Source of the DNA: Chiloscyllium plagiosum
Taxonomy: Eukaryota
NCBI RefSeq assembly: GCF_004010195.1
Contig: NC_057739.1
Coordinates: 45,514,176 to 45,578,175, forward strand
DNA: 64,000 nt
Direction: 5' to 3'
The notes under the pieces are model-generated. The model saw nothing but the letters and a program-made list of their open reading frames with translations, was not told where the DNA came from and ran no database searches. The translations under genes were made by a program, and so were the position numbers. Numbering within the stretch: the stretch's first letter is position 1; every line of letters begins with the position of its first letter. Shown here one piece after another: positions 876 to 63,900 of this stretch.

Positions 876-1308
876 TCCTACTGCACTGTAATTAATCCCT
901 GAGGCTGAACAGTATACTCAGTAATCTCTTGGTTAATTAAAACTGAACTCCAGGTTTAGACAGTGTTTATCTGCTCCTGGGTTAATATTAACCAAACATC
1001 TCAAGCCAGAGATTAAGGTCAATCCTGCAGCACCAATAAAATGAGATCAATTATCCTGATTATTTACCTCAAAGGAACAGAGTGAGACTATTCAGCCTCA
1101 GTTACACCAGGATCCAAACCTTAATTCCATTCTCCTGGCTTGGCTCTATCTCACTTCATAACAGATAATCCTCTAATTGTCTTCATCCTACGGAGTCCAA
1201 GTCTATGTAAACCATCCTAATGATGTGGAGATGCCAGTGTTGGACTGGGGTGGACAAAGTTAAAAATCACACAACACCAGGTTATAGTCCAACAGGTTTA
1301 TTTGGAAG

Positions 1309-1343
1309 CACTAGCTTTCGGAGCGCTGCTCCTTCATCAGGTG
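1309..1343 (-). ncRNA. Minimal type-I hammerhead ribozyme motif in the Penelope terminal repeat
   Basis: Minus strand reads CAC CTGATGA A GGAGC AGC GCTCC GAA AGCT A GTG: intact core, 5-bp stem II, palindromic AGCT stem III, CAC/GTG stem I. Confidence 0.75.
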
Positions 1344-3142
1344 GTTGTGGAGGTTAAGACCATGTTCTTAGGATTTATTGCCAAAGGAGTCCAGTGTCAT
1401 GGAGTTGGGATACAGCAAACAATCTTAGATTAGACCAAAATGGACTCCACACTTTCGGCCAGCACTCAGGATACAGCAGTACACTTACGGGACACTCCCA
1501 AACAGGGAAGGTGACAAAACTACACCACGTACACGCACACCAAGAACAGGAAACAGGAGAAACTTGGCATCACCACCAGCAGTAGCCAAGCCCCCCGGCA
1601 CCATGGTTGAAAACATTATCACCACGGGGAAGTTGATCATCAACATATCAGACCACACCCTTCAACTGGAAGAGATCGAAGTTCTTAGCAAAGGGCTCAA
1701 TTTTTGCCCCATCACTAACGTGGACCCCATCAGTCTAGCAGCAGAGGAATTCATTAGACAGATAAGACTCTCAAGATGCCAGCAATGATCCCAATGACTC
1801 CACCAACGAACCAGAATAGTCATCACAAAGCATCCAAAGAGGAGCGACCAAAAAAGACGTCAACTTGGACCCCACCAGAGGGCCGCTGCCCTGGGCTTGC
1901 CATGTATGCTCAAACCATCAGGAAATATATAAATACCAGATTCCTCAGCCGCACCCACAATGTAGAGCAGAACATCACCCGATCACAGCACAACACCATC
2001 CAGGCTCTCAAACCCAATCACAATCCCATTGTCATCAAACCAGCAGATAAAGGAGGAGCCATTGTCATTCAGAATAGAACAGATTGCTGAAAGGAAGTGT
2101 ACCGACAACTGAACAACCAGGAACACTGCAAGCAACTACCAGCCGATCCAACCAAAGAACACACCTGTGAACTAAACACATTGATCAGGCCTTTGGATGC
2201 AATCCTTCAGAGTTCCCTACATGCCCTCATCCCACATACTTCTGGCGTAGGCAACTTCTACTGACTTCCAAAGATACACAAAGCCAACACAGCAGAATGT
2301 CCTGTTGTATCAGGCAATGGGACCCTGTGTGAGAACCTCTCTGGCAATGTCGAAGGCATCTTGAAACCCATTGTACAGTGGACCCCCAGCTTCTGTCGCG
2401 ACACTACAGATTTCTTAAGGAAACTCAGCACCAATGGAACAGTCGAACCAGGAAAATTCCTCATCACAATGGGTGTTTCAGCACTCTACACCAGCATCCC
2501 CCACAGCCTCAGTGCTCAGTACCAATAACTGCCAATCTCCAAGCTGCAACTCATCCATTTCATCCTTGACCACAATATTTTCACCTTTGACAACCAATTC
2601 TTCATCCAGACACAGAACAGCCATGGGGACCAAATTTACACCCCAATATGCCAACATTTTCATGCACAAGTTCGAACAAGACTTATTTTCTGTACAGGAC
2701 CTCCAACCAACACTTTCCACCAGATATATTGACGACATTTTCTTCCTCTGGACCCATGGTGAGGAGTCACTGAATATCAATGAGTTTCATCCCACCATCA
2801 GATTTACCGTGCACTACTCTCTACTATCTGTGTCTTTCTTAGACACAAGTATCTCCATCAAGGATGGACACCTCAGCACCTCACTGTACCACAAATCCAC
2901 AGATAATCGCATAATGTTACACTTCTCCAGCTTCCACCCAAAACATATTAAAACATCCCCCATGGACAAGCCTCCACATACACAGGTTCTGTTCAGATGA
3001 GGAATAATATGACGGACACTTGAAAGTGCTCAAGGATGCCCTCATAAGAACGGGGTACGATGCTCAACTCATCAACCGCCAGTTCCACAGCAAGAAACCA
3101 TAATGACCTCCTCAGGAGACAGACATAGGCTGCAACAGACAG

Positions 3143-3296
3143 AAGAAAGTGAGGACTGCAGATGTTGGAGATAGAGTCGAAAGTGTGGTGCTGGAAAAGC
3201 AAGAGAATCGACATTTTGGGCATAAGCCCTTCATCAGGAATCCTGTTCCTCGGATGCTGCCTGACCTGCTGTGCTTTTCCAGCACCACACTCAACT
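3143..3296. mobile_element. Short fold-back Penelope-derived element (family B) nested in the Penelope ORF
   Basis: Inverted arms gtgtggtgctggaaaagc / gcttttccagcaccacac; 13-bp direct repeat CTGCAACAGACAG at 3130-3142 and 3297-3309. Confidence 0.8.
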
Positions 3297-4714
3297 CTGC
3301 AACAGACAGGCTACCCCTCGTTGTCCAGTACTTCCCGACTATGCCATGTTCCTCGCAGCCTGCAACACATTATCCATGAGGATGAGTATCAAGCCAAGAC
3401 CTTCCCTGGGCCTCCACCTTTCGCCTTTAAATAACCACCAAACCTTAAACAGATCATGATCCGTAGCAAACTGCCCAGCCTACAGGACAGCAACACCGTA
3501 CAACCCTGCCCCAGCGGCTGTTACAAGATATGTCAGAGTATGGGGACACCTCCCACCACGTATACGGCGAGTACTCATGTGACTCGGCCAATGTTGTCTA
3601 TCTCATATGCTGCAGGCAAGGATGCCCTGAGGCATGGTACATTGGTGAGACCGAGCAGATGCTAGGACAGCGGGTGATTGGACACTGCACAACAACCACC
3701 GGGCAGGAATGTTCCTTCCCAGTCAGTGAAGACTTCAGCGGTTCGGGACATTTGGCCTCGGACCTTCAAGTGACCATCATCCAAGGTGGACTTCGAGACA
3801 AGCAACAACGCAGCGTGGCTGAGCAGAGGCTGATAGCCAAGTTCAGTACCCATGGGGATGGCCTCAGCCGGGACCTTGGGTTCATGTTACACTACAGGTG
3901 ACCCCACTGCACTACACACAGACAGACACACACACACAGACACACACTCCTACATACTCACACACCCGCGCAGACCCTCCCTCATACACAAGGTCTCATA
4001 TGCACACAATACACCTCCCACACTAACACCAACACATGCACCCTCTCGCACGTACCCCATAACACTCACACACACTTAACGAAGCATACACACACACAAT
4101 CACTTACATTCACACCCAAACACCCACACTCAAATGCACACTCACTCTGTTGCTCCTACATGCACACACATATAAGTTTATGGGGTGAATTTGTTTTTGC
4201 AGAATTACATTTTATTTTGTGAAGAAACTGCCTGAATCCATGTAAAACTCTAAAATCATGCAGAGGGTTTGTCAGTCTGACATAGCATTGGGACACAGAC
4301 AGATTCACACGTATTGTTTAAAAAGCTGAGCTAGCTTGAGAATGTAATTTAAAAGAGGTTCTGGGATTTACATATCAAAGACCAGAAACCAGCATATCCC
4401 ATTCTCAAAGATGAAAGTTTTAATCTAAGATTTTCTCCCTGACACTGGCCTCCTGTGGCTTTAAATTCTGTGAGCATGATCTTAACCTCCACAACCACTT
4501 GATGAAGGAAACTACTGCTTCCAAATAAACCTGATGGACTATAACCTGGTGTTGTGTGCTTCTTAACTGTCCTCGTAATTTAACCCTTTAAACCCTAGGA
4601 TCAGTCAGGTGACTGGGTGCTGCTGCCCCTCCAAGTCTGGCAGCTCCTCCCTGGGGGTGGGCTTGACTAACCCCCATACCCCCGCATGGCCTACAGCAGC
4701 TGATTGAATGTTGA

Positions 4715-5048
4715 CTGTATCATAGAATCCCTGCAGTGTAGGTAGAGGCCATTTGACCCATCGGGTCTGCACAGACCCTCCACAAAGCATCTTCCCCAGA
4801 GCTCAGCCCCAGCCTTGCACCTCATCCTTTTCAAGGCCACATTTCCCATTGCTAACCCACCATAGTCTGCACATCCCTGGACACCAACAGCCAATGGCCA
4901 ATCCACCCTAATGTGAACACCTTTGGACTGTGGGAGGAAACCCATGCAGACATGGGGAAAATGTGCAAACTCCACACAGACATTCACCTGAGGCTGGAAT
5001 CAAATCCGGGTCCCTGGCGCCATGAGGCAGCAGTGCTAACCACTGAGC
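4715..5048 (-). mobile_element. HE1-like tRNA-derived V-SINE
   Basis: Reverse complement of the same head, V-domain and CR1-like tail seen at 40681-40984. Confidence 0.85.
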
Positions 5049-5212
5049 TTGGGGGTATTTCTGCTCTGGCCCTCCTCACTCAATGTACTGGAAAATCCCA
5101 ACCCAGAGACTGGAATTATTGACAATCATGTTTCTCTCCTGCTGCTGGAATCTCTCTGGGTCCCTGCGAGAGAGTTGCTTTTATTGGTGTCCTTGATAAA
5201 TAGTACATTCTG

Positions 5213-6124: not shown

Positions 6125-6635
6125 ATTTGGATGATTTGGAGGAGCTGGCGTTGGACTGGCATGGACAAAGTTCAAAATCACACAGCACCAGGTTATAGTC
6201 CAACAGGTTTATTCGGAAGCACTAGCTTTTGAGGTGCTGCTCCTTCATCAGGTGGTTGTGGAGCAGGACCAGAAGACACAGAATTTATCACAAAAGCTTA
6301 GTATCACGGAGTTGTAATGATATGTTAAACAAACTTAGATTAAGTCTTGCATCTTTTAGGATGGGATACACTGGTTTAGACTCTTTAATATGTAAATTCG
6401 AGAACTCCTTTTAAGTTACATTTTCAAGGTGGCTTCAGTTTATCTAACAGTAGGTGTTATCTTAGCTCAGACAATGTATTAAAGCTGTAAACTTAAAGTC
6501 TGTCTCAATGTTGAGTCAGTTTTATTTCTAAAATGCTTCCAAGTAAACCTAAACCACCTGATGAAGGAGCAGCACTCTGAAAGCGAGTACTTCCAAATAC
6601 TTCCAAAACCTGCTGCTGTGTGATTTTTAACTTGA
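6125..6635. mobile_element. Non-autonomous fold-back Penelope family-A element
   Basis: Both ends match the terminal repeat of 1225-4570 in opposite orientations; degenerate hammerhead cores at about 6220-6255(-) and 6555-6590(+). Confidence 0.8.
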
Positions 6636-6699
6636 TCTGGATGAGGACAGGCAGACACAACAAAGTTGTTATTTACTGTAAAAGTGACTAAGCTCTGCA

Positions 6700-7175: not shown

Positions 7176-7584
7176 TTCCTGTGGTGACTTATTGTGATAG
7201 CCTGCCCATTGAGCATTCCCACTGACTGGCATCACCAGCTTTACCAGATTGGAACTTCCAGTCTGCTCATGTGGACAGGGTCAGGGTGTAGAAAGGACCG
7301 TAGTCTTGGAGCTGGGCACAATCTTTCCCTGTCACCGATTCTTGGAAATCACATCCTGTGTGTGTCCAACTACTTGCTGCCAATCCTTTCAAGGCAGTGA
7401 TGTTCTCTACAAAGTATCACTCAGTCAGAAACAGATCCTGGTTTGGGAAGAGCTCCCCCTCAACTGATGCTATGAGAATGCGAGTCCAATAAAGATCAGA
7501 GAATTCATCTCAAATCAGAAAAGCTGCTGAACAGCCCCATACTCCCCTCACACTGGTTTACTGTCAGTGAGCTATATACTGCAT

Positions 7585-8145
7585 TGGGAAATCAGTCAGG
7601 GTTCCTGCTTCTGATCACTGTCCACTGATCCCTGGGTTAGAGAGAGAGAAAGAGAGAGAGGGCAAATCAGTCAGCGTTCCTGCTCCTGATCACTGTCCAC
7701 TGATCCCTGGGTTAGAGAGAGAGAGGGGAGGGGGGAACTCAGCCAGGGCTCCTGCTCCTGATCACTGTACACTGATCCCTGGGTTAGAGAGAGAGAGAGA
7801 GAGAGAGGGCAAATCAGTCAGCGTTCCTGCTCCTGATCACTGTCCACTGATCCCTGGGTTAGAGAGAGAGAAAGAGAGAGAGGGCAAATCAGTCAGCGTT
7901 CCTGCTCCTGATCACTGTCCACTGATCCCTGGGTTAGAGAGAGAGAAAGAGAGACCCTGGATGCTGCCTGACCTGCTGTGCTTTTCCAGCAATAAAGTTT
8001 CAACTTTGATCTCCAGCATCTGCAGACCTCACTTTCTCCCCGGGTTAGAGATCCCTTGGATTGAGAGAGAGAGTGAGAGAGAGAGGGAAAATCGGTCAGG
8101 GTTCCTACTCCTGATCACTGTCCACTGAGCCCTGGGTTAGAGACA
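7585..8145. repeat. Tandem repeat of about 60-70 bp with embedded (GA)n, interrupted by a Penelope-B fragment (about 7956-8040)
   Basis: Unit aaatcagtcagcgttcctgctcctgatcactgtccactgatccctgggttagaga..., about 6 copies. Confidence 0.9.
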
Positions 8146-10581: not shown

Positions 10582-11182
10582 TCTGTTTCTCTCTCCCTCT
10601 CTTTCTCTCTCAGCCTACTCTGTGTAATCCCTCCAATTCCCTTGTGTGTGCCTGCCTCACTTTGATTTCAGATTATTTGAAGAATCCTGAGCTGCTTTTG
10701 CATAAAGTCTCAAACATGTTCTTAGTTTAAAATTAAAAATACAATACTACCCACTGATGATGTTCTCATTAAAAGCTCTGTGCAGAACCTTGGAACAAAG
10801 CAAAAATCACCCAATCAGATCACCTCAGCCGACAGTGATTTCACAGCTCAATAAGCTGAAGAATTTGTTCACAGGCTATTCAACCACAAGGTGCTTCACA
10901 TTCAAGCCTAATCGTGTTTGAAACAGCAGCCCACACATGCTGCCCACAGGAACAAACCCAGGCATGATCCCTTCCCTTGCCAGGGGGCTTGCAGGTTTAC
11001 TGTGAGAGCAGACTGAGTCTGTCAGGTTCACAGGGTGTGACAGCTACTCACTTACACTGAGTCAAGAGGGAGTATACCAGTTCCTGCACCCAATCACAAC
11101 ACGCTTCAATCCAACTCAGAAAATCCCAATCATACCAATACACTCCTGAGACACTCTGCCACCTTCATTTAAAACTCATTAG

Positions 11183-11497
11183 AGGGTGAGTGCTGAGGGA
11201 GTGCCGCACTGTCGGAGAGTCAGTGCTGAGGGAGTGCCGCACTGTCGGAGGGTCAGTACTGAGAGAGGGCCGCACTGTTGGAGGGTGAGTGCTGAGGGAG
11301 TGCCGCACTGTGGGAGGGTCAGTGCTGAGGGAGTGCCGCACTGTCGGCAGGTCAGCGCTGAGGGAGTGCCACACTGTCAGACGGTCAGTGCTGAGGGAGT
11401 GCTGCACTGTCGGACGGTCAGTGCTGAGGGAGCCGCATTGTCGGAGGGTCAGTGCTGAGGGAGTGCCGCACTGTCGGAAGGTCAGTGCTGAGGGAGA
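11183..11497 (+). repeat. 33-bp minisatellite (gtcagtgctgagggagtgccgcactgtcggagg)
   Basis: About 9 direct copies; same unit at 23081-23273. Confidence 0.95.
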
Positions 11498-11634
11498 TTC
11501 TCAGTATTTGAAGCAAAGCAGCTATGGTCTCTCTGGCTCCTGACCAATCTTCTTTTCTGTCAATTCCTCAGCGTCTCAGCTGACTTGCTTCTACTCAGTC
11601 GGTGATGGTGATGATGATGTTGTGATGATGGTGA

Positions 11635-11765
11635 TCATGATTTGGAGATGCCGGTGTTGGATTGGGGCGTACAAAGTTAAAAATCACACAGCACCAGGTA
11701 ATAATCCAACAGCTTTATTTGGAAGCACTAGCTTTCGGAGCGCTGCTCCTTCATCAGCTGGTCGA
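11635..11765 (-). mobile_element. Penelope family-A terminal repeat fragment with hammerhead core
   Basis: Matches 1225-1345; CTGATGA...GAAAGCTA intact on the minus strand, stem I mismatched. Confidence 0.8.
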
Positions 11766-11769
11766 TGGT

Positions 11770-12225
11770 GGATTGTCCAATCCTGAAACTGCAAATTCTG
11801 GCACCAAGGAGTGGCAGGGAGTGTTTGAGGAGGTGGGTGAGTGGGATGTTCCAGTTTCTGTGTGCTCTGCCCACTGCCTGTGCTTGGTTGCCACATGCTG
11901 CACACCATGACGTTCACTGTGGGTGGCACCAACACAGATGCTCCCTCTCCAGTTTGTGTATTCTGGGACACACATGTTTGTGGGATGTTACATTTGCTTA
12001 GAGACACTTTCAGGGTGTCCTTATACTATTAACTCTGCCCTCTGAGCACTTGACTGGGGAATCTTGTGTTGGGCCTGGGGACAATGTGGCCCACTCATCA
12101 CCACTCGTTGTGTGTGACTAGAGCCTGGGTATACAGGTCTGGGAGAGGACGCTCACATTGGTACACCTAACCTGCCAGTTGCTTGCTGCTACATTTGAGT
12201 TCTCCGATGTTGAATACTCTGTGTC
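11770..12225 (-). mobile_element. RTE-like LINE 3' fragment
   Basis: Minus-strand translation WRGSICVGA...KHRQWAEH resembles an RTE ORF C-terminus. Confidence 0.5.
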
Positions 12226-14010: not shown

Positions 14011-14714
14011 GTTGGTGACAGTATCTGAAAATATTTACATTTCAAAGTGAAATTCCATTCAATCTCTTCTGTTATTGTGTCAAAATCTTGGGAAAATCTA
14101 AGTGTCAGAATAGATAAAGGTTCCAGAGTCTGTGCCAGTGGAAACAGGTGAACGATTGGGGCCAATAAGAGAGCCCAAGGACCAGACAATGGGGTGAGAC
14201 CTTACTAATTTCCAAGGTAAATAATTTCTCCAGCAGCTGCAGCCAGGGGTCTGGAGTTCAGGAAATGTTGCATTTACCAGGAGGCGGCTTTATGCTGAGA
14301 TAACAGCTGTGTCCTGATCCACTCTGTTATTCCGCACTCTATTTCACATCCCAGGACCAGCCGAGAATTCCATAAACATAATCTGTCTCCAGCTCACTCT
14401 CAAAAACATTTCCCTCCTGATTAGGAATCACCTTGGATGGAGTTATTAAACTCCTAGTGTGATAGGGCACAGCCTAATGCTACAACAGGTCACATTTTTA
14501 CTTTCCCTCATGAATAAACCAAAACTGCTGACATTTTGTGGAAAACACGCTCATCCAACCTGTATTAAAACCTTGTATACCAGACTCTGAGGTAGGGACA
14601 CACAACCTGAAACGTTAATTCAGATTTCTCTCCATAGATGCTGAGTTTTTCGAACAATTCCTGTTTTTGTCTCTGAATACCGTCTTGCTGTTGTTCTGGA
14701 CCAACAGTTTTACA

Positions 14715-15490: not shown

Positions 15491-15834
15491 CACTGCCAAG
15501 TTCTGCAAAACAAGCTGCTAGAAACATGGCTTGGCCTAGAGCCTCAGTACATTGTCTATAGAGGAGACAGTTCCAGATTGTCACTCCCATTTGTGTGAGG
15601 AAATGCTTCCTAGCATTATCGTTGACCATCGCAGCTCAGATGTTAAGTTCCTGACCCTTCTTCTGGGCTCTTTCCACCAGAGGGAAGAGTTTAGCCCCAC
15701 CAGTCTGATAAAATCTTTCTGTCATTTTAAATTTATCAACAAAATCCTACAGAACTTCATAGTGAGCAGATAATTAGACTTCTGGGCAATTTGAAATTAA
15801 ACAGTAATCCCTTACAGTAAGATTCTTCTAAAAT

Positions 15835-17858
15835 CCACACCCCTCACTGTGACACCCTGATATACCCCACACCCCTCACTGTGTCACCCTGATACATCCC
15901 ACACCCCTCACCATGACACCCTGATATGTCACACACCCCTCACTGTAATACTCTGATATTTCACACACTCCTCACTGTAACACTCTGATATACCCCTCAG
16001 ATTAACATTCTGATATATCCCACACCGTGACACCCTGATAGGTCACACACCCCTCACAGTAACATTCTGTATCCCACAGCCCTCACTGTAACACTCTGTA
16101 TCCAAAACCCCTCATTGTAACACTCTGATATACCCCACACCCCTCACCATGAAACCCTGATATGTCACACACCCCTCACTGTAATACTCTGATATACCTC
16201 ACACCCCTCAGATTAACATTCTGATATATGCCACACCGTGACACCCTGATAGGTCACACACCCCTCACTGTGACACTCTGATATTCCCCACACCACTCGC
16301 TGTGACACCATGATATACCCCACAGCCCTCACAGTCACACACTAATATACCCCACACACCCTCACTGTTTCACCCTGATATACCACACATCCCTCGCAGT
16401 GCCACTCTGATTTGTCCCACACCCATCGCTGTAACACCCTGATATATCCCACAACCCTCACTGTGACAGTCTGATATACCCCACACCCCTCAGATTAACA
16501 TTCTGATATACCCCACACCCCTCACCGTGACACCTGATAGGTCATACACCCCTCACTATAACACTCTATATCCCACACCCCTCACTGTAACACTCTGATA
16601 TTTCACACACCCCTCATTGTAACATTCTGAAAGACCCTTCAGCCCTCACCTGATCTGTCCTCGCACCGTCACTGTGTCACCCTGATACACTGTACACCCT
16701 CACTGTAACACTCTGATATACCCCACCCCCCTCACCACACTGTCACACCCTGATATGTCCCACACCCCTCACTGTCACACCCTGATATATCCCACCCCCC
16801 TCACTGTGTCACCCTGATATACCCCACCCTCCTCACTGTGTCACCCTGATATACCTCACACCCCTCACTGTAACACTGATATACCCTACACGCCTCACTG
16901 TAACACTGATATACCCCACACCCCTCACTGTAACGCACTGATATACCCCACAGCCCTCACGGTAACACTCTGATATACCCCACACCCCTCACTGTAACAC
17001 NNNNNNNNNNNNNNNNNNNNNNNNNNNNNNNNNNNNNNNNNNNNNNNNNNNNNNNNNNNNNNNNNNNNNNNNNNNNNNNNNNNNNNNNNNNNNNNNNNNN
17101 NNNNNNNNNNNNNNNNNNNNNNNNNNNNNNNNNNNNNNNNNNNNNNNNNNNNNNNNNNNNNNNNNNNNNNNNNNNNNNNNNNNNNNNNNNNNNNNNNNNN
17201 NNNNNNNNNNNNNNNNNNNNNNNNNNNNNNNNNNNNNNNNNNNNNNNNNNNNNNNNNNNNNNNNNNNNNNNNNNNNNNNNNNNNNNNNNNNNNNNNNNNN
17301 NNNNNNNNNNNNNNNNNNNNNNNNNNNNNNNNNNNNNNNNNNNNNNNNNNNNNNNNNNNNNNNNNNNNNNNNTCCTGATATACCCCACACACCCTCACCG
17401 TGACACTCTGAAATACCCCACACCCCTCACTGTAACACCCTGATATATCCCACACCCCTCACCATGACAACCTGATATGTCACACACCCCTCACTGTAAT
17501 ACTCTGATAATTCACACACTCCTCACTGTAACACTCTGATTTACCCCTCAGCCCTTATTTTAAAATCCTGATATGTCCTCACACCCCTCACTGTGTCACC
17601 CTGATACACTGTACACCCTCACTGTAACACACTGATATACCCCACACCCCTCACTGTAACACACTGATATACCCCACACCCCTCACTGAAACACACTGAT
17701 ATACCCCACAACCCTCACCACACTGTCACACTCTGATATACCCCACACCCGTCACGGTAAAACCCTGATATACCCCACACCCTCATTGTAACACCCTGAT
17801 ATACCGTTCACTCCTCACTGTCAAACTCTGATATGTTGCACACCCCCCACTCTAACAA
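15835..17858. repeat. 33-35 bp satellite (acccctcactgtaacactctgatataccccac) spanning an assembly gap
   Basis: Dozens of diverged copies on both sides of the N run. Confidence 0.95.
17001..17372. other. Assembly gap (372 N)
   Basis: Run of N. Confidence 1.
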
Positions 17859-18085
17859 GGGAAAGTGAGGACTGCACAGACTGAAGATCAGAGTCGAAAA
17901 GTGTGGTGCTAGAAAAACACAGCAGGTCAGGCAGCATCCGAGGAGCAGGAGAGTCAACATTTCAGGCATAAGTCCTTCATCAGGAATGTGACACTCTCAT
18001 AAAGGACTTATGCCCAAAACATCGACTCTTCTGCTCCTCAGATGTTGCCTTTCCTGCTGTGCTTTCCAGCACCACATTTGTTGAC
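17858..18085. mobile_element. Short fold-back Penelope family-B element
   Basis: gggaaagtgaggactgc...gtgtggtgctagaaaaac / gctttccagcaccacat inverted arms; two degenerate hammerhead cores. Confidence 0.8.
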
Positions 18086-19835: not shown

Positions 19836-20699
19836 ACTCATTTGGAGGCACATTCTCTCGCATCCAAGCTCAGAGGTTGAGCGTTCAAGTTCCACTCCAC
19901 AGCCAAATTTACAATGACATTCTTGATGCGGTATACACACAAGGGATGTGAGTCAAAGACATTGGGTGTTTGAGGTTACAAAGATGGTGAGGATCATGCT
20001 GCATTTGAAGTAGTGCTGTGAACAGCTGTAATCTGTGTGTTATAAAAAGGAGATGGAAGCACCTGGAGAAGATGGAACATGATTTCTGCAGCAGAGATTC
20101 TGAACTGAAATGAACAAGCTGACCTCCCTTGAAAGGTGACATGATAGAGACATTCAGAATTTTGAAAGGGATTGACAAGGTGACCATGGAACAATTCTTT
20201 CCACGTAAATTGTGGGGAGGCCTAAACTATGGTCATCAATACCGTCAAGTCCAGTAGGTAATTTGGTTATTTAACCCAGAGCGTGTGAGAACTTGCTGCA
20301 GTATGGTTGATGTGAATGTACATTTGAGGGATAACAGGTGAGGAAAAAATACAAGGGAAGTAGATGGGTTGTGTGAAATATGGACTTACAGCCCATTTCA
20401 CTTTGTCAACAGCATAAACACAATCATTTTCCGGTCCCTTTAGTTCTGAAGAGATCATTGGACTCAAAACTTTAATTCCGTTTTTCTATCTCTGCGGCCA
20501 GAACTGCTTTTGACAGCATTTTTAGTTTTTAATTTTGGTTTCACTGCATAATACAGTCGAGATAAAAACTGCAAGGCCATAGACCTGCATTTCCCCAGCA
20601 GGAAACAACCAAATTTCTCAAGCTTTAGTTTTATTGAAGGGGTCCATTCTCACGGATAAGCTCCACATGTTTTACTCGTTATTGGAGATAGTGCACTTT

Positions 20700-20997: not shown

Positions 20998-26696
<5,699 letters not shown>

Positions 26697-29724: not shown

Positions 29725-38843
<9,119 letters not shown>

Positions 38844-39149: not shown

Positions 39150-40200
39150 TTTGATGTGGAGGTGCTGGTGTTGGTCTGGGGTGGACAAAGTTAAAAATCA
39201 CACACCACCAGGTTATGGTCCAACAGGTTTAACTGGAAGCACCAGCTATCAGAGAGCTGCCCCTTAGTCAGGGAGCTAGTGGGGTTCGATCATAGGATAC
39301 AGAGTTTATAACTGATGCGACGTATTGAACAAATCTAGATTGCTGTTAAGTCTTTAATCACTTACAATGGAAATATATGTTTCGATTGATTAATATTCAT
39401 TAAATCCCAGAACTTCTTTCAAGTCACAGTCCCAAGATAACCGAAGGTTTTATAAAAAAGACAATGGATTAAAGGTGTGAGGTTACAGTCTGACCCAACC
39501 TTGAGCCAGACTGGTTTTATTTCCAAAGTATGAACTTATAAAATGTCACATGGACTGACTGCCTACAGATTGTGTTTTTTTTAACAAAATAGAATGTTTC
39601 TACAAAAAAAATCTGCAAATGCAAATTCTCCCCATAGACTGATGTGTGTGTGTGTGAGGGAAAGAGGGAGAGTGAGTGTGTGTGGAACAGAGTGAGAGTG
39701 AGTAAGTGTGTGTGGGTGCGTATGTGTTTGTGGTAGAGAGGGAGTGAGTATTTGTGTGCATGTGAGAGTGCGTGTGTGCATGCTTGATAGTGTGTGCAGA
39801 GTGTGACAGAGTATATGTCTGTGTGAGGATGTGTACGTGAGTGTGGGTGTGTGTGTCTGAGAGAGTGTGTGTATGAGAGAGCGTCTGTGTGAGTATGTTA
39901 ATGTGATTGTGTGTAAGTGTATGTGTTTGTGTGCTTGTGTGTGAGTGAGAGTGTATAGTGTAGTGGAGTCACCTGTAGTGTGATATGAATCCAAGAACCT
40001 GGTTGAGGCCATCCTCATGGATACTGAACTTGGTTATCAGCCTCTGCTCAGTGACTCTGTGTTCTTGCATATCCTGAAGACCACCTTGGAGGATGGTCAC
40101 CTGAAGATCTGAGCCAAATGTCCTTAAAGTGTTCCCTGACTGGGAAGGAACATCCCTATCTGGCAATTGTTGCGAGGTGTCCATTCATCAGTTGTTATAT
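39150..40200 (-). mobile_element. 5'-truncated Penelope family-A element
   Basis: ORF 39969..40184(-) SDLQVTILQGGL...EQRLITKF...GLNQVLGFISHYR matches the C-terminus at 3530-3901; (TG)-rich tract and terminal repeat. Confidence 0.9.
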
Positions 40201-43439: not shown

Positions 43440-45650
43440 AGAGAGTAAGGCAAGGCTGATCTTTATTTTAATGCTAGGAGTGTACCAGGTAAGACTGATG
43501 AGTTAAAGGCATGGATTGACGTATGGAAGTATGATATTGTTGCCATCACATGAAACATGATTGAGGGAAAGGCTGCATTGACAACTCAACATCCTGGGGT
43601 ATAGGAACTTTAGGTGAGACAGTGAAAAATATAAAAAGGATGCTGGTGTATCACTATTAATTAAGGAGTCAGTTATTGCAATAAGGAGAGATGATATCTT
43701 TGAAATGAGGCTTTGTGGGTAGAACTTAGGAATGTTAAGGGGGCAGGAACTTTACTGAGAGTGTATTGTAGCCCCCAAAGAATCAGCAGGAAATAGAGAG
43801 GCAAATATATAGTCGGTTTATAGGGGTATGCAAGAGTAATAATCAGGTAATTATTCAAAGGGATTTCAACTATCCCAATAGAAATTGGCTTAGTCATAGT
43901 GTTAAGGGTTTAGAGGGGGCACATTTCTTGAAATATATCCAGGAGAGATTTTTCGTATAGAATATGTAGAAGGGGCCCAACAAAGGATGGTGCAGTACCA
44001 GATCTGATTCTGCGGAAAGAAGCCAGACAAGTGTTCAATGCAGGAATGTTTTGAGCGATAGTGACCACAACAGTTTTGTGTGTGTGTGTGTATGTGTGTG
44101 TGCGTGTGTGTATGTGTGTGTGTCAGGGACCCATGTTCAATTGTAGCCTTAGGTGACTGTCTGCGTGGTTTCCTTCAGGTGCTCCAGTTTCCTCCAACAA
44201 TCCAAAGATGTGCAGGCCAGGTGAATTGGCCATGCTAAATTGCCCATAGTGTTCAGGCATGTGTAGGTTAGGTGCATTCATCAGGGGTAAATGTAGAGTA
44301 ATAGGGTATGGGAATGGAGCTGGGTGGGATACTCTTTGATGTTGACTTGTTGGGCCGAAGGGCCGGTTTCCACACTGTGGGATTCTATGTACCCTGTAGG
44401 GGGAAATATCGGTGCAAAAAGTTCAGGGACACCTGGATGTCTAGGAAATTCAGGACTAGGTGAGGAAGAACAGAAAGGCCTTTCGCAAGTCCAAATGGAG
44501 CAATTCTTTTGCGGCCCTAGAGGATTATAGGGAGTGCAAAAGGGAACTTAAGAAAGCAATTAGAAGAGCAAAAAGGAGAACTTGGGAACAAGATTAGGAA
44601 GAATTCTAAGGTATTTTATAAATACATTATAGGGAAGAGGTTAACCAGAAAAAGAGTAGGGACCAAGGGCAACCTATGTGTGGAGCTGCAGGATATTTGA
44701 AGGGTGTTAAATGAATATTTCTCTTTGCTCTTCACTCTGGAAAAGGAGAATGTAGGTACAGAATTCAGGAAAAGGGACTGTGAGGAAACAGACAAATCTT
44801 CTGGCCCAGATGAATTGCAACGCAGGCTCCTGTGAGAGGTGAGGCAGGAAATTACAGGGACTTTGACGTGAATTTTTAATTCCTCTCTGTCCACCAGGGA
44901 AGTGTCAGAGGAGTGGAGAACATCTAATGTGGTTCCACTTTTCAAGAAGGATGGTAGAAATGAACCAGGAAATAAATGTCATGTCAGTGGTAGGGAAACA
45001 ATTAGAGAAAATTTTGAAAGAGAGAATTAATATCCATTTGGAAAGGCATGGGTTAATTCAGGTTAGTCAGCATGGCTTTGTCAAAGGGAGTCGAGAGCGT
45101 GGTGCTGAAGAAGCACAGCAGGTCAGGTAGCATCCAAGGAGTAGGAGAATCGACGTTTTGGGCAAAAGCCCTTCATCAGGAATGATGCTGTGAGGTGAGG
45201 GGGTGGAGAGATAAATGGGAAGGGGGTGGGGGCTGGTGGGAAATGTAGCTGAGAGTGCAATCGGTGGATGGAGGTGGGGGTAATGGTGATAAGTTGGAGG
45301 GAGAGTGGAGCAGATAGGTGGGAAGGAAGATGGACAGTAGGACCGGTCATGAGGACAGTGCTGAGTTGGAAGGTTGAAACTGGGATAAGGTGGGGAGAGG
45401 GGAAATGAGAAATAACATTTTCATTTAAAGCATAGTGGGAATCTGGAATGCACTGCCTGGCAAGGTAGTGAAGACTGGAAGCCTTATAACTTGAAAAAGA
45501 TTTTGGATGAGCATTTGAAATATCATAACATTCAGAAATATGGGACAACTGCAGGAAAATGAGATCAGCACACCTTCAGTGGCAGTTATGTTGTTGCAGA
45601 CTGGATGGGCCAAATGACCTATTAGGCACTGTATGACTCTATGACATTTG
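43440..45650 (+). mobile_element. Degenerate CR1 LINE with nested (TG)n, HE1 SINE fragment (about 44125-44390) and Penelope-B fragment (about 45089-45420)
   Basis: APE-like tattttaatgctaggagt...; SVVGKQLEKILKERINIHLERHGLIQVSQHGF. Confidence 0.8.
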
Positions 45651-46929
45651 CCTAGGAGTTAATGAGGACTGCAGATGCTGGAGGTTAGCGTCAAAGAGTG
45701 TGGTGCTGGAAAAGCACAACTGATCAAGCAGCACCCAAGCAGCAGAAGAATCGATGTTTCGGGAATACGCCCTTCATCAGGAATGACTTTTGCTCATAAG
45801 GCAAATAGCACTGCTTTGGCCTTACAGAATCATGGAATTGCTTCCTGGTCAACATGCAAGGTGGCCTTAGTTCCTCTAATAGTCCCGAAACCTTCTAGGA
45901 AGACTTCTGGGTATTTAGTTAGGACTTCACTCAGGCAGCCATTTTCTAATTGAAAAATGTTGAGCCAATTAGGTGAATTTCTCACAATCAATTTCGCTCC
46001 ATCAAACTTGGGTCCAGCTTTTTACTACAATCACTGGTAACTGAAGCAGCTGCTTTTCATAAGCGAAGGTTCCCTGATATCGGTTCTCAGCCAAACTGAG
46101 GTGTTGTGTAAAGTTAAGGGCTGGAGTCCAGAGTGAATTTTATTAAAAATGAGTTCTGCAATCACTGATCCAGCCTCGCGGGTATTGACTTCTATTAGAA
46201 GTGGATGATCATTTAACCAAACATTTATCTTGATTCGTTCTGGTTTGGATATTCCTGAGCAATTTAACAGTTCCATATCAACTGTAGGTAGACTTTCCAG
46301 CATATGAACTCTCCTGAATACATTCCGGAGAGTTCATACAGGTCTATGAATGACCTTACTCAATTCAGTTCTGGTAGGACTCTTGCTGACTTGAGTCTGC
46401 ATACCAACAACTACTATGGGTTGCTGGCCAGGATCCTGAAGAAAATTTTAACTGTTTGGCCAAGGCTTGGCTTTGTTTTGGGATTTTGCTGTGGGCTGAC
46501 CAGAGTCACTCTGATCAGGAAATGTGCTGAGTAAGGCTTTGCAATTACCTGCACCCACATGATGTTTCCCAGTTGGACTGGTTAAGGCGAGAATGTGGTG
46601 CTGGAAAAGCACAGCAGGTCCGGCAGCATCCAAGAAGCAGGAGAATCAATGTTTCGGGCATAAGCCCTTCATCAGGAATGAGGCTTTTGGGCTGGGGGGT
46701 GGCGTTGAGTAAAGGTGACCATTTCCATTGGAATACCTTGCTCCAATGGCCATATTTTCCAATAATAAAGCCAGTTGTAGCACCCATGTGAAGTTAAGCT
46801 GAGTTTCAACTTGCAGTTACATTATTATTGTTGATTGATAGATGTACCAAGATACAGTGAGGAGCATTGGCAGAGAAATAACACCCACAGCCTCTTTGAG
46901 TTTGAGGGCGAAATGACCATCATGCTGGA

Positions 46930-53700: not shown

Positions 53701-56700
53701 CATCAACTCGGTGAAGGACGCTCTTTGGTCTGTCCAAAACCTGTTGATCTTCCAGCTGAAGGAGTTGACCCTGACTGAGTGTTGCAGAGTGGCACATTCC
53801 AAGGTCCAGGACTACATGTTGAGGGACATGCTGAAGTTTGGGGCAGCTTTCGCCAAGGCGCAGTGGGGAAAGACCACTGTGTAAGGTCTGCCTGCCTAAG
53901 AAGAACAGGGGACCAACTCAGTAATCAGGCCCCGCTGACGCCTCAGCTAAATATCTGGATGGTCAATGTACAGACTTGTACATACGAATGATTAATTCCG
54001 AACTCTGTATGTAAAGAAATGCAATGTGTGCATAAGAGTGACTTGACCAATTGTATAGATATCAAAATAATTTTTTGCATAAAGTATATTTTTGAAATTT
54101 AAAAAAAAGTGAGGTGTGGCATGTGAGGGCATGAGTTACACAGTTAATGACAGGGCCTGGAGAGTGTTGTCAAACAAAGAGACATGGATGTGCAGGTGCA
54201 TAGTTCCTTGAAAGTGGAGTCACAGAGAGATGAGGTAGTGAAGAAGGCATTTGGCACACTTGCTTTCATTGGTTAAAATTTTAGATGTGAAAGTTGGAAT
54301 GTCATGTTGCTGCTTTACAGGACATTGGTGAGGCCACTTTTAGAATATTGGAGGCAATTCTGTCCTTCTGCTACAGGAAAGATCTTGTTAAACTTGAGAG
54401 GATGCAGGAAAGATTTACAAGGCTGTTGCTGAGTCCAGACGTTTCAGTTATATGGAAAGGCTGAATAAGCTGAGTTCTCTGAAGCATTGGAGACTGAGGA
54501 GTGACCTTATAGAAGTTTATAAAATCATAAGAGGCATGAATAGGGTGAATAGGTGAGATCTTTTTCCCAGGGTGGGGGAGTCCAAAACTAGAGGGCATGG
54601 GTTTAAGGTGAGAGGGGAAAGATCTTAAAAAGAACCTAAGGGGTTACTTTTTCACAAGGAGAGTGGTGCACGCATGGAACGAGCTGCCAGAGGAAGTGGT
54701 AGAGGTGAGTACAATTATAACATTTAAAAGGCATCTGGATTAGTATATGAATAGGGAGGGTTTAGAGGTATATGGGCCAAATTGGGACTAGGTCAGATTG
54801 TGATATCTGGTCAGAGTGGACAAATCGGACAGAAGGTCTGTTTCCGTGCTATATAATTCTATAACCCAATGTAATTCTATATTGGCTGCAATCCTTTTGA
54901 CTATATTCCATTTTTACCCATCTCCTAAAACTAGGTTGAATTTATGGATGAGGCAACTGCCAATCGTGCTGTGGAAGAAGTAAGTATGTAGCCTAAGTTG
55001 CAGGGGTCAGTGTACATGACAGGTTCAGCTATAATGCACAGAGTGTAACATCGGGGTCAAGGAAGCTTTACTCAGTGTCTATCCATGTACTATGGATAAC
55101 TAGAAGTGTGTGGGGACAATGTAGTGAGAACTTTACTCTGCATCTAACACTGTTGACCTTGAAGTGGCTGATGGGGACATTGTAGAGTGAAGAAAACAAA
55201 GAATTGTGGATGTTGAAGATCTGAAACAAATAAAATCAGAAATTGTCAGAAAAATACAGCAGCTCTGGCAGTATCTGTGGAGGTAAAACATCATCAATGT
55301 TTCAACTATAGTGACTCTTCTTCAAAACTGATAAACTGACAAGAAGGTGGTATTTTTATTGGTGACACTGACTGCGGTTGGGAATAGTTTCTTCGGGAGG
55401 TGCTGAAAAATGAGTGATAGGTGGTGATGGAATCCAGAGAAAGAGAAGGTAGGCATGCAAAGGGATTGTTAATTGCAAGCCAGAGAAGAAGAGAAGAGAA
55501 TAGGTGAAAATGAAGTTATGAGTAATTGATGACTGTGTTGAAAGGAACCCATGTCATGATGGGACCTGGGGGTGTGGGGAAAGGGTAATAGACGTCATGG
55601 GAGGTGCTCAATATTTAAAATTGTTAAACTTGATGTTGCGTCCTGAAGACTGTGTCAGGTTCTTATGCAGAAACTGAGATGGTGTTTTTCTAGGTTGTGT
55701 TGCTGAAGCACTGCAGTAAGTCTGAGACAAAAATCTTGAAATAGGAACATTGTGATGTGCTGAAGTGGCAAGGAACTGGAAGCTCAGAGTCATTTTTATG
55801 GACTGACTGAGTTTATTCTGCAAAGCAGTCACCCAGTCTGCATTTGTCTCCCCAATGTCGAGGAGACCGCACTGAACAATGAATACAGTAGATTAGGTTG
55901 TGTGAAGTGCAGGCAAATTACTGCTTCACCTGGAAGGTGTGTCTGGGACCTTAGATATTGAGGGGGTAAAGTACAGCATTGCCTGTTTCACTTCTACATT
56001 GGGGTGATAAAACACAGACTGTGTGACTACTTCACAGAACACTGATGTTCTGTCTGTAAGAATGATCCTAATTGTTTACTTCAACGCACCATCATGTTTC
56101 TATGCCATTATATCTCTCTCAGGCCTCCTGCTGTGCTCCAGCGAGGTTCAACACAAGCTGGAGGAACAACATCTCATTTTCCACTTGGGACCTTACTCAG
56201 CCTTCAGGACTCAGCATTGAGTTCAATAATTTTATAGCATGACATGGGTTGTTTTCAGCACAGCCAATCCAATTTCAACTTTTAACCCATAGTATTATCT
56301 ATCTGGCTTCTTGTCTCTGGCTAATTGTCAACAATCCCTTTGCCTCTCTCTCTGGGTTTTGCCTCCACCTATCTGTTCACTACTTTTCCTGCCCACCGCC
56401 CGCCATCAGCATATATACCACCTTTTTCTGGTTCTTATCAGTTCTGGAGAAGAGTCACTGAACTTGAAACAGTAAATCTCTTTTCTCTCACAGTTGCTGC
56501 CAAATGTGCTGAGTTTACCCAGCAATTCTATTTTTGTTTCTTACAGTGTAGAGTAAACTTTACTCTAGATCAATCTATACTGTCCCTTTCTGGGAGTGGT
56601 TGATGGGGACAATGCAGAGGCACCTTGAAAAGATGGCCCAGAGGCCAGTGTCCTATCACCAAGTCACAGTTTATTTACACATGCTTAGTACATGGACTCT

Positions 56701-60611: not shown

Positions 60612-60919
60612 GTAAGATGGAAGAGGAAAGTCTTTCAACTAGCTTTTCATTTCTCTAAATACAAAGAGGCAAAGTAATAGCTGACTGCTAACTTTCAGCT
60701 GAGAATCATATGTAATTATAGCAGTAAATGATAACAGATCAACAGCCCATTTTAGGCAGGGTGTAATGTAAGCTGCTGATTTGCCGTCACCTTCTTTAAT
60801 AAAACAAAAAAGAACTGTGGATGCTGGAGATCTGAAATAAGAACTGAAATTGCTGGAGAAGTTCAACAGCCCAGCAGCATCTGTGGAAAGGAAGGAGAGA
60901 TAACGTTTGAGTCTGGTGA

Positions 60920-63900
60920 AATGCAATAAGGGGTATGTCGGGTTCCAAAAAATCGATTGTGTTAGTGGAGTCTCTAGTCCGAGGTACAGACAGACGTTTC
61001 TGTGGCCACCAGCGAAAACTCAGAATGGTGTGTTGCTTCCCTGGTACCAGGATTAAGGATGTCTCAGAGAGGGTACAGAATATTATCAAGGGAGAGAGGG
61101 GCCAGGAGGAGGTCATTGTACACATTGGAACCAATGACATAGGAAAGGAAAAGGTTGAGATTCTGAAGGGAGATTACAGTGAGTTAGGCGGGAATTTAAA
61201 AAGGAGGTCCTTGAGAGTAGTAATATCTGGATTACTCCCGGTGCTACAAGCTAGTGAGGGCAGGAATAGGAGGATAGAGCAGATTAATACATGGCTGAGG
61301 AACTGTTGTATGGAAGAAGGATTCACATTTTGGATCTTTGGAAGTTCTTTTGGGGTAGAAGTGACCTGTACAAGAAGGATGGATTGCACCTAAATTGGAA
61401 GGGGACTAATATACTGGCAGGGAGATTTGCTCGAGCTGCTCGGAGGATTTAAACTAGTAAGGAGGGCAGAGGGTGGGACCCAGGGAGATAGTGAGGAAAG
61501 AGATCAATCTGAGACTGGCACAGTTGAGAATAAAGGTGAGTCAATCAGTCAGGGCAGGCAGGGACAAAGCAGAGAACAAGGTAGGACTGATAAATTAAAC
61601 TGCATTTATTTCAGTGCAAGGCAGATAAACTCAGGGCATGGTTAGTAATGTGGGAATGGGGTATCATAGCAATTATAGAAACATTGCTCAGGGATGGACA
61701 GGACTGGCAGCTTAATGTTCCAGGATACAAATGCTACAGGAAGGAGAGAAAGGGAGGCAAGAGAGGAGGGGGAACTGGTGTTTTTGATTAGGGATAACAT
61801 TACAGCATCCAGGGAAGTTATTTGGGTGGAACTGAAAATAAGAAAGGGATGATCACATTATTGGCATTGTATTATAGATCCCCTAATAGTCAGAAGGAAA
61901 TTGAGAAACAAATTTGTAAGGAGATCTCTGTTATCTGTAAGAATAATAGGGTGGTTATGGTAGGGAATTTTAACTTTCCAAACATAGACTGGGACTGCCA
62001 TAGTGTTAAGGGTTTAGATGGAGAGGAATTTGTTAAGTGTGTACAAGAAACTTTTCTGATTCAGTATGTGGATGTACCTGCTAGAGAAGGTGCAAAACTT
62101 GACCTATTGTTGGGAAATAAGGCAGGGCAGGTGACTGTGGTGTCAGTGGGAGAGCACTTTGGGGCCAGCGACCATAATTCTATTAGTTGTAAAATAGTGA
62201 TGGAAAAGGATAGACCAGATCTAAAAGTTCTAAATTGGAGAAAGGCCAATTTTGACGGTATTAGGCAGGAACTTTCAAAAACTGATTGGGGGCAGATATT
62301 CGCGTGTAAAGGGACGGCAGGAAAATGGGAAGCCGTCAGAAATGAGATAACAAGAGTCCAGAGAAAGTATATTCCGTCAGGGTGAAAGGAAAGGCTGGTA
62401 GGTATAGGGAATGCTGGATGACTAAAGAAATTGAGAGTTGATTAAGAAAAAGAAGGAAGCATATGCAAGGTATAGACAGAATAAATCAAGTGAATCCTTA
62501 GAAGAGTATATAAAGGCAGTATATACATATAGGAGTATACTTAAGAGAGAAATCAGGAGGGCATAAAGGGGACATGAGATAGGTTTGGCAAATAGGGTTA
62601 GGGAGAATCCAAGGGGTTTTTAGAAATACATTAAGGACAAAAGGTTAGCTACGGAGAGAAGAGGGCCCCTCAAAGATCAGCAAGGCGGCCTTTGTGTGGA
62701 GCCGCAGGAGATAGGGGAGACACTAAATGAGTATTATGCATCAGTATTTATTGTGGAAAAGGGCATGGAAGATGTAGAATGTAGGGAAATAGATGAAAAA
62801 TGTCCATATTGCAGAGGAGGAAGTGCTGGATGCCTTGAAACACATAAAAGTGGATAAATCCCCAAGATCCCCTAGAACTCTGCGGGAAGCTAGGGAAGTG
62901 ATTGCTGTTCCTCTTACTGAGATATTTGTGTCATCGATAGTCACAGGTGAGGTGCCAGAAGATTGGAGATTGGCTAACATGGTGCCACTGTTTAAGAAGG
63001 GTGGTAAGGACAAGCCAGGGAACTATAGACCAGTGAGCCTGATGTCAGTGGTGGACAAGTTGTTGGGGGGAATCCTGAGGGACAGGATGGACATGTATTT
63101 GGAAAGGCAAGGACTGATTAGGGATAGTCAACATGGCTTTGTGCGTGGGAAATCATGTCTCAATCATAATCTTGGTTGAGTTTTTTGAAGAAGTAACAAA
63201 GAGGATTGATGAGGGTAGAGTGGTAGATGAGATCGATGTGGACTTCAGTAAGGTGTTCAACAAGGTTCCCCATGGGAGACTGGTTAGCAAGGTTAGATCT
63301 CATGGAATACAGGGAGAACTAGCCATTTGGATACAGAACTGGCTCAAAGGTAGAAGACAGAGGGTGGTGGTGGAGGGTTGCTTTTCAGACTGGAGGCCTG
63401 TCACCAGTGGTGTGCCACAAGAATCAGTGCTGGGTCCACTGCCCTTTGTCATTTAAAGAAATGATTTGAATGTGAACATAGGAGTTAACGTTAGCAAGAT
63501 TGTAGATGACACCTAAATTGGAGGTGTGGTGGACAGCGAAGAAGGTTACTTCAGTGTACAACAAATCTTGATCAGATGAGCTAATGTTTCGAGTCTAAGC
63601 TTTAACAAAGGGTCAGTTAGACTCGAAACGTCAGCTCTTTTCTCTCCTGACAGATGCTGCCAGACCTGCTGAGATTTTCTAGTGTTTTCTCTTTTTTTTT
63701 ATAGTTCAGAGTATTGAGTACAGGAGTTGGGAGATCATGTTGCGGCTGTACAGGATATTGGTTAGATCACTTTGGATAGTGTGTGCAATTCTGGCGTCCC
63801 TCTTATCGGAAGGATGTAGTTGAAAGGGTTCAGAAAAGATTTCCAAGGATATTGCCAGGTTTGGAGGATTTGAGTATAGGGAGTGGCTGAATAGGCTGGG

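What the first reader, a model, noticed from the sequence alone, without database searches (positions are those of the whole stretch)
1309..1343. Minimal hammerhead ribozymes with cross-family covariation in three repeat families
Seen: family A reads CAC-CTGATGA-A-GGAGC/GCTCC-GAA-AGCT-A-GTG (1309-1343, -). Family B consensus is TTC-CTGATGA-A-GGGC/GCCC-GAA-ACGT-C-GAT (cores intact at about 45750-45783 and 46645-46678, -; ACGT seen at about 34010 and 45153). Family C approximates (C)TGAnGA-GGGTC/GAC(T/C)C-GAAAC (decayed, at about 20445, 21570, 55300, 56445 and 63605). Catalytic positions stay fixed while stem II and the 4-nt palindrome replacing stem III (AGCT vs ACGT) change compensatorily. Established: Penelope-like elements carry minimal hammerheads thought to cleave as dimers through a palindromic stem III. 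Inference: this genome holds very many such motifs (over 15 relics in this window), several inside SURF2, SURF4 and STKLD1 introns; many appear inactivated by CpG decay next to the GAAA.
Basis: partly seen in the sequence, partly recalled or inferred. Interest (0 to 1): 0.8.

Follow-up and report, generated by a model that had tools for sequence, protein, structure and literature searches.

The report
Hammerhead-tipped Penelope retroelement ends
The motifs are minimal hammerhead-ribozyme sequences at the ends of Penelope-like jumping genes, a known kind, here in hundreds of thousands of mostly worn copies whose edges suggest the copied RNA likely began at the ribozyme and was likely still uncut.

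Summary
Real, and of a known kind. The 1309-1343 motif is an intact minimal type-I hammerhead in the inverted terminal repeat of a decayed Neptune-type Penelope-like element (window 1220-4594). Families B and C also follow the endonuclease ends of Penelope-like ORFs. Cross-family covariation holds (85 of 90 pair cells; shuffles at most 71). Genome-wide, 226,029 core-intact matches stand against 5,767 in the control. CpG decay of G12 is confirmed. Corrections: only 1 window copy passes a strict descriptor; both 'intact' B copies lost the palindrome; the 63605 copy belongs to a subfamily with a fixed U3-A8 core swap, so the core is not invariant. SURF4 intron positions are confirmed; SURF2 is unresolved and STKLD1 was not found. 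Added: short copies end just upstream of the core, about 30 nt after a TATA-like box, and not at the cut site (3 of 177 B, 0 of 47 A). So the RNA likely starts at the hammerhead and was copied uncut. Cleavage is untested. The scan already reported these families and the 5' pile-up on other pieces of this genome.

The parts
1309..1343 (-). Family A minimal hammerhead, the only window copy passing the strict descriptor; predicted cut after the CUA triplet
1220..1404 (-). Inverted, 5'-truncated pseudo-LTR with tail, at the 5' end of the Penelope-like element; holds the hammerhead
1400..3898 (+). Decayed ORF (stops and frameshifts) of a Neptune-type Penelope-like element: reverse transcriptase, cysteine linker, GIY-YIG endonuclease
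   Evidence: translation; sister copy L162 hits RVT_1; window endonuclease piece aligns to the GIY-YIG region of P0035, E 4e-8
3143..3296 (.). Family B head-to-head insertion inside the ORF, flanked by a 13-bp target duplication (3130-3142 and 3297-3309); its hammerhead (-) has G12 changed
4307..4594 (+). 3' pseudo-LTR of the same element; hammerhead from 4499 has C3 changed and stem II deleted
6131..6644 (.). Family A head-to-head pair (6131-6486 -, 6551-6644 +), both decayed
11636..11784 (-). Family A short copy; core, stem II and palindrome intact, stem I lost at the 5' junction
25320..25500 (.). Family A head-to-head relic, decayed
37962..38101 (.). Family A insertion (inverted tail plus short copy) in SURF4 intron 1; position 17 is G
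39151..40194 (-). Longer family A copy with endonuclease remnant upstream; hammerhead decayed
7956..8039 (+). Family B fragment without the hammerhead
17861..18078 (.). Family B head-to-head pair, decayed
22178..22311 (-). Family B short copy, core and palindrome mutated
33910..34079 (.). Family B head-to-head insertion in SURF4 intron 1; ACGT kept, core cut off at the junction
36373..36571 (.). Family B head-to-head insertion in SURF4 intron 1, decayed
45086..45393 (-). Longer family B copy with promoter region; G12 changed to A
45655..45786 (-). Family B short copy; core boxes intact, palindrome ACAT, one stem II mismatch
46586..46699 (-). Family B short copy; core boxes intact, palindrome ACAT
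14586..14666 (+).
20446..20527 (+). Family C relic, decayed
21509..21596 (-). Family C relic, decayed
55235..55480 (-). Longer family C relic with TATA-like box and initiator-like start
56075..56528 (+). Family C copy preceded by the C-terminal end of a Penelope-like endonuclease (56075-56232); hammerhead at 56444
60843..60918 (-). Family C fragment, core missing
63598..63693 (+). Copy of the U3-A8 subfamily (called D here), starting at stem I; this copy has G5 changed to A

Best explanation
These are minimal type-I hammerhead motifs in the terminal repeats (pseudo-LTRs) of several Penelope-like retroelement families, and the element's RNA likely starts at the hammerhead and is likely reverse-transcribed uncut. 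Shown in the sequence: in family A the order is TATA box, hammerhead, about 90 nt ending in an optional tail of about 35-40 nt, ATG, then the RT and GIY-YIG ORF; B, C and D copies follow endonuclease ends of related ORFs. Inferred: the element's protein nicks DNA and primes at one of two sites 3' of the hammerhead, then copies back to the RNA's 5' end. On a tail at the front of a transcript this yields the 90-130 nt stubs that dominate the genome; fold-back or two cDNAs meeting there yields the head-to-head pairs. The ribozyme likely cuts only when two RNAs pair through the 4-nt palindrome or when the protein helps; a cut would remove the capped first 32-37 nt and would likely silence or retire that RNA rather than prepare it for insertion. 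Individual genomic copies are passive relics.
For: Element anatomy in the window. Direct pLTR-tail-ATG-ORF tandems in at least 4 of 30 loci (L254, L270, L276, L279, output partly cut). B, C and D follow endonuclease ends. Covariation: 85 of 90 cells paired, shuffle mean 57.5, maximum 71 of 20,000. 5' ends stop at 2.8-2.9% per nt in the zone -15 to +8 around C3, against 0.1-1.0% in the 7 other zones; within 1 nt of the cut site lie 3 of 177 B and 0 of 47 A ends. A subfamily-aware recount gives 74 of 133 B ends at -8 to +8. TATA-like boxes lie at about -40 in A and -33 to -36 in B, C and D, and ends shift with them: median -6 in A, -4 in B plus D, p 0.001. Target duplications abut these ends in copies read by eye. 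In PMC11167929 (passages and part 2 of the main text) an anole element primes internally, uses uncut RNA, and its hammerhead cuts only with protein. Poly(A) RNA reads cross the hammerhead with no pile of starts or ends.
Against: No start site was measured; the one informative RNA run is a poly(A) single-cell library that showed no start pile-up at the predicted site either. The B box is degenerate (TTTAT-like). B ends spread from -8 to +14 rather than forming one spike. Poseidon-type family E, with a clear TATA box at about -49, has 24 of 30 long copies, and its 6 short ones end at -40, -29, -28, -14, -14 and 0, not at the predicted -19 to -17. A cap-derived extra G was not shown. In PMC2377424 (passages) Drosophila Penelope has a TATA-less internal promoter with an intron before the hammerhead, so the layout is not general. 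Hammerhead folds lie 1.5-3.6 kcal/mol above the monomer minimum in the 4 intact examples. No cleavage was tested.
Confidence: 0.65

Rival explanations
1. The hammerheads cut the transcript at both repeats, the unit is ligated to a circle, and rolling reverse transcription makes the tandem and truncated copies (the model of Cervera and de la Pena 2014).
For: Strong conservation of core and palindrome across families, including the U3-A8 swap, implies selection for catalysis in master elements. A re-ligated junction would leave no mark at the cut site. Direct tandems exist.
Against: A circle has no 5' end, so it does not explain the pile-up just upstream of the core. No circular joints at the cut site were listed in RNA reads (weak, poly(A) library). 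Core mutants did not impair insertion in vitro (PMC11167929).
Confidence: 0.15
2. The short copies are independent non-autonomous families (SINE-like or retrozyme monomers) whose masters happen to begin at the hammerhead.
For: Short copies far outnumber long ones in B and D. A 2026 preprint (10.64898/2026.07.22.740005, parts 1-2 of 5 read) derives animal retrozymes from pLTRs and reports solo monomers.
Against: 5' ends vary copy by copy over about 20 nt and target duplications abut them. Short and long copies share subfamily-specific letters. The predicted promoter lies upstream of the stub. No tandem arrays of hammerhead units among the 20 repeat families shown for the window.
Confidence: 0.1
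3. The RNA continues upstream, but reverse transcriptase stops or jumps after unwinding the hammerhead or its dimer, so the pile-up marks structure, not a start site.
For: In B, C and D the peak coincides with the outer edge of stem I; inverted junctions cluster there.
Against: Family A ends centre on -8 to -6 although its stem I is 3 bp. Family E has a hammerhead but 0 of 30 copies end at -3 to -6. Stalls are expected at the 3' edge of a structure (own knowledge).
Confidence: 0.08
4. The motifs are chance or non-catalytic sequence look-alikes.
For: Rfam gives no hammerhead match; predicted folds are marginal.
Against: 38 hits against 0-1 in shuffles; 226,029 against 5,767 genome-wide; compensatory changes in every helix and in the 3-8 pair.
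Confidence: 0.02

Closest known systems
Minimal hammerheads (min-HHR) of metazoan Penelope-like elements (Cervera and de la Pena 2014, PMC4209133; parts 1-2 of 4 read)
   Same: Type I, no true stem III, palindrome at 15.1-16.1, extra base between 9 and 10.1, G10.1-C11.1 pair, short stem I, many families per genome, mostly solo copies, and a U3-A8 variant (reported there for Schistosoma Cercyon).
   Different: Scale: about 2.2 x 10^5 core-intact matches here against about 4,000 (coelacanth) and 9,000 (Xenopus) there, with different descriptors. Stem II is 4-5 bp in A-D. No shark is named in the parts read; its supplements were not opened. The 5' pile-up at the hammerhead is not described in the parts read.
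Neptune clade of endonuclease-bearing Penelope-like elements (Craig et al. 2021, PMC8557442; passages)
   Same: [quoted passage not shown]
   Different: Clade placement here rests on the linker motif, not on a tree with reference elements. No intact ORF was found among the copies read.
PAc, Poseidon element of the green anole (Frangieh et al. 2024, PMC11167929)
   Same: Two priming sites bounding the tail, uncut RNA as template, no RNA ends seen at the cut site.
   Different: There the ORF starts inside the hammerhead; in family A the ATG lies about 90 nt past the cut site. Protein-assisted cleavage was shown there and is untested here.
Adineta vaga Penelope elements (Arkhipova et al. 2013, PMC3846280; passages)
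   Same: Putative TATA box and initiator in the pLTR, solo pLTRs, palindromes at head-to-head junctions.
   Different: That paper favours self-priming on an antisense template; the junctions here fit fold-back or meeting of cDNA ends at the sense RNA's 5' end (inference).
Non-LTR retrozymes (PMC7229834, search listing only; preprint 10.64898/2026.07.22.740005, parts 1-2 of 5)
   Same: Type I hammerhead, pLTR-related, reported in one cartilaginous fish.
   Different: Retrozymes are tandem arrays of hammerhead-bearing units; the window copies are dispersed, solo or head-to-head.

Membership tests
min-HHR of Penelope-like elements | Core boxes CUGANGA, GAAA and UH in order | tested here: met
   subfamily D has the U3-A8 swap
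min-HHR of Penelope-like elements | Extra base between 9 and 10.1, and G10.1-C11.1 closing pair | tested here: met
   all 38 random hits have the extra base; G-C in 7 of 9 representatives, G-U in 2
min-HHR of Penelope-like elements | Palindrome in place of stem III | tested here: met
   51 of 70 descriptor hits have ACGT or AGCT when the palindrome is not required; 14 more are single CpG transitions
min-HHR of Penelope-like elements | Compensatory changes between families | tested here: met
   85 of 90 cells paired, shuffle maximum 71; families are related, so this is not a probability
min-HHR of Penelope-like elements | Location in the pseudo-LTR of a Penelope-like element | tested here: met
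min-HHR of Penelope-like elements | Self-cleavage as dimer or with protein | not testable with these tools
   folding only; no RNA ends at the cut site listed
Neptune-type endonuclease-bearing Penelope-like element | Single ORF with RT followed by GIY-YIG bearing the CCHH motif | tested here: met
   RVT_1 on sister copy L162; homologues carry RVT_1 and GIY-YIG; motif read; the 6 window fragments alone hit no Pfam family
Neptune-type endonuclease-bearing Penelope-like element | CX2-5CxxC linker between RT and endonuclease | tested here: met
   family A copies L163, L165 and family B copy L315; not seen before the endonuclease of family E; not examined for C or D
Neptune-type endonuclease-bearing Penelope-like element | Partial tandems, inverted 5' copy, optional 30-40 bp tail, variable target duplication | tested here: met
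   no target duplication recognised around the 1220-4594 element itself
Neptune-type endonuclease-bearing Penelope-like element | Phylogenetic placement among reference Neptune elements | not tested
   no reference set was at hand
Non-LTR retrozyme | Tandem array with a hammerhead in each unit | tested here: not met
   window copies are dispersed, solo or inverted
Canonical hammerhead families in Rfam | Match to a curated covariance model (full stems, tertiary loops) | tested here: not met
   0 hammerhead families among 8 matches

The most novel reading that the evidence does not exclude
In Neptune-type elements of sharks the hammerhead forms the first 32-37 nt of the capped RNA, placed there by a TATA box and initiator. 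It acts as a self-decapping switch, armed by RNA dimerisation or protein binding. About a million genomic stubs are run-off copies of the uncut 5' leader, and head-to-head pairs arise where two cDNAs meet or fold back at the cap. Some stubs now supply poly(A) sites to host RNAs.
Probability: 0.35. Interest if true: 0.6.

Novelty: new member of a known kind. Interest (0 to 1): 0.3.

Why it matters
The role of hammerheads in Penelope-like elements is still open: the circle model and the in vitro result that cleavage is dispensable point different ways. This genome offers a very large record of template ends, several covarying families and a natural U3-A8 core variant. That makes the question testable by junction statistics, start-site mapping and simple cleavage assays. 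The motif class itself is not new, and the window copies look neutral.

Tried and rejected
Rfam scan: no hammerhead family. Pfam on window ORF fragments: 0 of 6 and 0 of 2. Search for an intact autonomous copy: the two longest open frames checked (L161, L162) were assembly gaps, and L163 and L165 carry stops; most of the 150 listed hits were not read. Cap-derived G at -5: 15 of 22 listed copies of one B subfamily have G there, but several of the 30 loci read are explained by target microhomology or inverted arms, so it is inconclusive. Splice-acceptor explanation of the 5' ends: D has a pyrimidine tract and AG there, but A does not and short copies share no upstream exon. Selection on genomic copies: non-CpG core positions differ less than tail positions (2.9% vs 5.2% in B; 3.8% vs 7.3% in A), but subfamily differences and alignment edges confound this, and catalytic G12 decays like other CpG sites; not counted as selection. 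The MAFFT alignment of 11 family representatives was off register, so pairs were counted from core-anchored positions on 9 of them; A2 and B3 were left out as near duplicates. Family E test of the start-site prediction: not confirmed. RNA search: no listed holder is on record as RNA; run X20 laid 0 reads. STKLD1: no kinase family in 63 + 64 frames scanned and no homologue for 55522-55674. Lunse et al. 2017 is not held, so it was seen only as cited in PMC6765202. The random sample stayed at 114 stretches of 10 kb.

Full report
Observation. A descriptor demanding core, stem II of at least 4 bp, palindrome and stem I of at least 2 bp finds only this copy in the window; 1 of 50 shuffles gave a hit. 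In 94 random 10-kb stretches (908,823 called bases) it finds 38, against 0, 1, 0, 0, 0 in five shuffles. Profile searches give 9 A, 13 B and 7 C pieces in the window. The two B copies called intact keep the core boxes but have ACAT for ACGT. Rfam lists no hammerhead among 8 weak matches.

What the motif belongs to. Window 1220-4594 is a decayed Penelope-like element: an inverted repeat holding the intact hammerhead, a broken ORF on the + strand, and a 3' repeat whose hammerhead has lost stem II. The window fragments alone hit no Pfam family (0 of 6). A sister copy hits RVT_1 at 2.3e-9, and the window endonuclease piece aligns with the GIY-YIG region of P0035 at E 4e-8. The closest named proteins are from sharks, at 82% identity. 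Sister copies show the cysteine linker that PMC8557442 gives for Neptune and Nematis. An RT search gave 26,708 first-look candidates, 150 scored; no intact ORF was seen in the four copies read. At least 4 of 30 loci show the direct order TATA box, hammerhead, tail, ATG, ORF. Long B copies follow a different GIY-YIG end in L071, L193, L198, L315 and L328. D and C copies do likewise, including window 56075-56232. A family B pair sits inside the window ORF with a 13-bp target duplication.

Abundance. Exact matches: 2,154 for the family A motif, 923 for one B variant, 834 for D, 2,290 for one variant of a further family E; all controls 0. A general core pattern without pairing rules gives 226,029 matches against 5,767 for the reversed control. 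Profiles find 45.6 A, 183.5 B and 90.4 C pieces per Mb in 1,095,342 bases, roughly a million if scaled to the assembly (extrapolation from large chromosomes only).

Covariation and decay. Across 9 natural representatives and 10 pair positions, 85 of 90 cells pair; shuffling 3' partners gives a mean of 57.5 and a maximum of 71 in 20,000. The families are related, so this is descriptive. Subfamily D has U3 and A8 in 99 of the first 100 listed matches to a pattern that allowed either base at both places, one C3-A8 and no C3-G8. PMC4209133 reports the same swap in Schistosoma.

Where copies end. 3' ends cluster in two zones, about 53-65 and 92-98 nt past the cut site, matching the optional tail. 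5' ends stop at 2.8-2.9% per nt between -15 and +8 of C3 and at 0.1-1.0% elsewhere; 3 of 177 B and 0 of 47 A ends lie within 1 nt of the cut site (copies at gaps or stretch edges, or lacking 40 nt past the cut, were dropped from 201 and 50). A recount against long copies of all B subfamilies gives 74 of 133 at -8 to +8. Of 30 D loci, 25 end at -3 to -8 and 5 are long, with the pattern itself fixing -3. Long copies carry a TATA or TATA-like box at about -40 (A) or -33 to -36 (B, C, D), and B and C have an initiator-like word around -4 (consensus from own knowledge). Short ends shift accordingly: median -6 in A, -4 in B plus D, p 0.001 (loci partly pattern-selected). Against this, family E (Poseidon-like by its ORF) shows no pile-up and its 6 short copies do not meet the predicted start.

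RNA. No listed holder is on record as RNA. One raw poly(A) single-cell run under the same species label as the best DNA holder laid 2,969 reads on a family A tandem. Depth was about 1,000 over the repeat and under 10 over the ORF, and 382 + 462 reads carried poly(A) about 30 nt past the cut site. No place with many starts or ends was listed. A second run laid none. For family B, 2,171 reads lay on both strands about equally, as expected for passive transcription; 5 of 7 opposite-strand joints have an arm at -5 or -4. These reads cannot show a start site.

Mechanism. Shown: anatomy, covariation, end distributions. From the literature: internal priming at two sites, insertion from uncut RNA and protein-assisted cleavage in the anole element (PMC11167929); low activity of minimal hammerheads even as dimers (PMC4209133). 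Inferred: transcription starts at the hammerhead; priming on the tail at the front of the RNA yields the stubs; cleavage, when it happens, decaps the RNA. Folding puts the hammerhead form 1.5-3.6 kcal/mol above the monomer minimum in 4 intact examples, and the double hammerhead well above other dimers, so help from protein is likely needed.

Host genes. SURF2 exons at 22829-22984, 23509-23628 and 24038-24223 and three SURF4 exons are confirmed. A SURF4-like first exon lies near 38.8 kb in a CpG island (read by eye), placing three insertions in its first intron. STKLD1 was not found.

Novelty. The class is published. Eight paper searches turned up no paper on shark Penelope hammerheads and none tying short-copy ends to a start site at stem I, in what I read. 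Lunse et al. 2017 and all supplements were not seen and may bear on this. TATA and initiator motifs in pLTRs are already noted in PMC3846280. The scan's own notes, looked up after my reading was formed, report the same families and pile-up on other pieces of this genome; they are not independent support. Verdict: new members of a known kind, interest 0.3.

Noticed in passing
L276:967-970: Family A repeats serve as poly(A) sites in RNA reads (382 and 462 reads with A tails), about 15-20 nt after the A(A/T)TAAA hexamer that follows the hammerhead.
   Followed up: partly
L331-L360: A fifth hammerhead family (E) ends a Poseidon-like element, has a longer stem II and mostly long copies; 2,290 exact matches for one variant.
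   Followed up: partly
L221-L250: In subfamily D at least 4 of 30 loci are perfect palindromes centred on the self-complementary stem I strand, with no loop.
   Followed up: partly
L187:5044-5083, L063:1495-1534: Some B copies have a 4-bp stem I where most have a U-U mismatch at the third pair.
   Followed up: no
window 60920-63453 (+): LINE-like remnant: GDSL-esterase/OSK-like ORF, endonuclease and RT pieces.
   Followed up: no
window 57479-58366 (-): Frames that look like gag and integrase remnants of an LTR retroelement (read by eye, name recalled).
   Followed up: no
window 4850-5050: SINE-like repeat resembling the shark HE1 family (resemblance recalled, not tested).
   Followed up: no
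window 47886-48760, 15777-17850, 11107-11563, 23015-23339: Minisatellite arrays with 23-, 32- and 33-bp units; the 33-bp unit recurs at several places.
   Followed up: no
window 7571-8125 (+): A repetitive frame scores on Pfam DPBB_1 (8.3e-7, no single stretch passing); probably an artefact of the 75-bp repeat.
   Followed up: no
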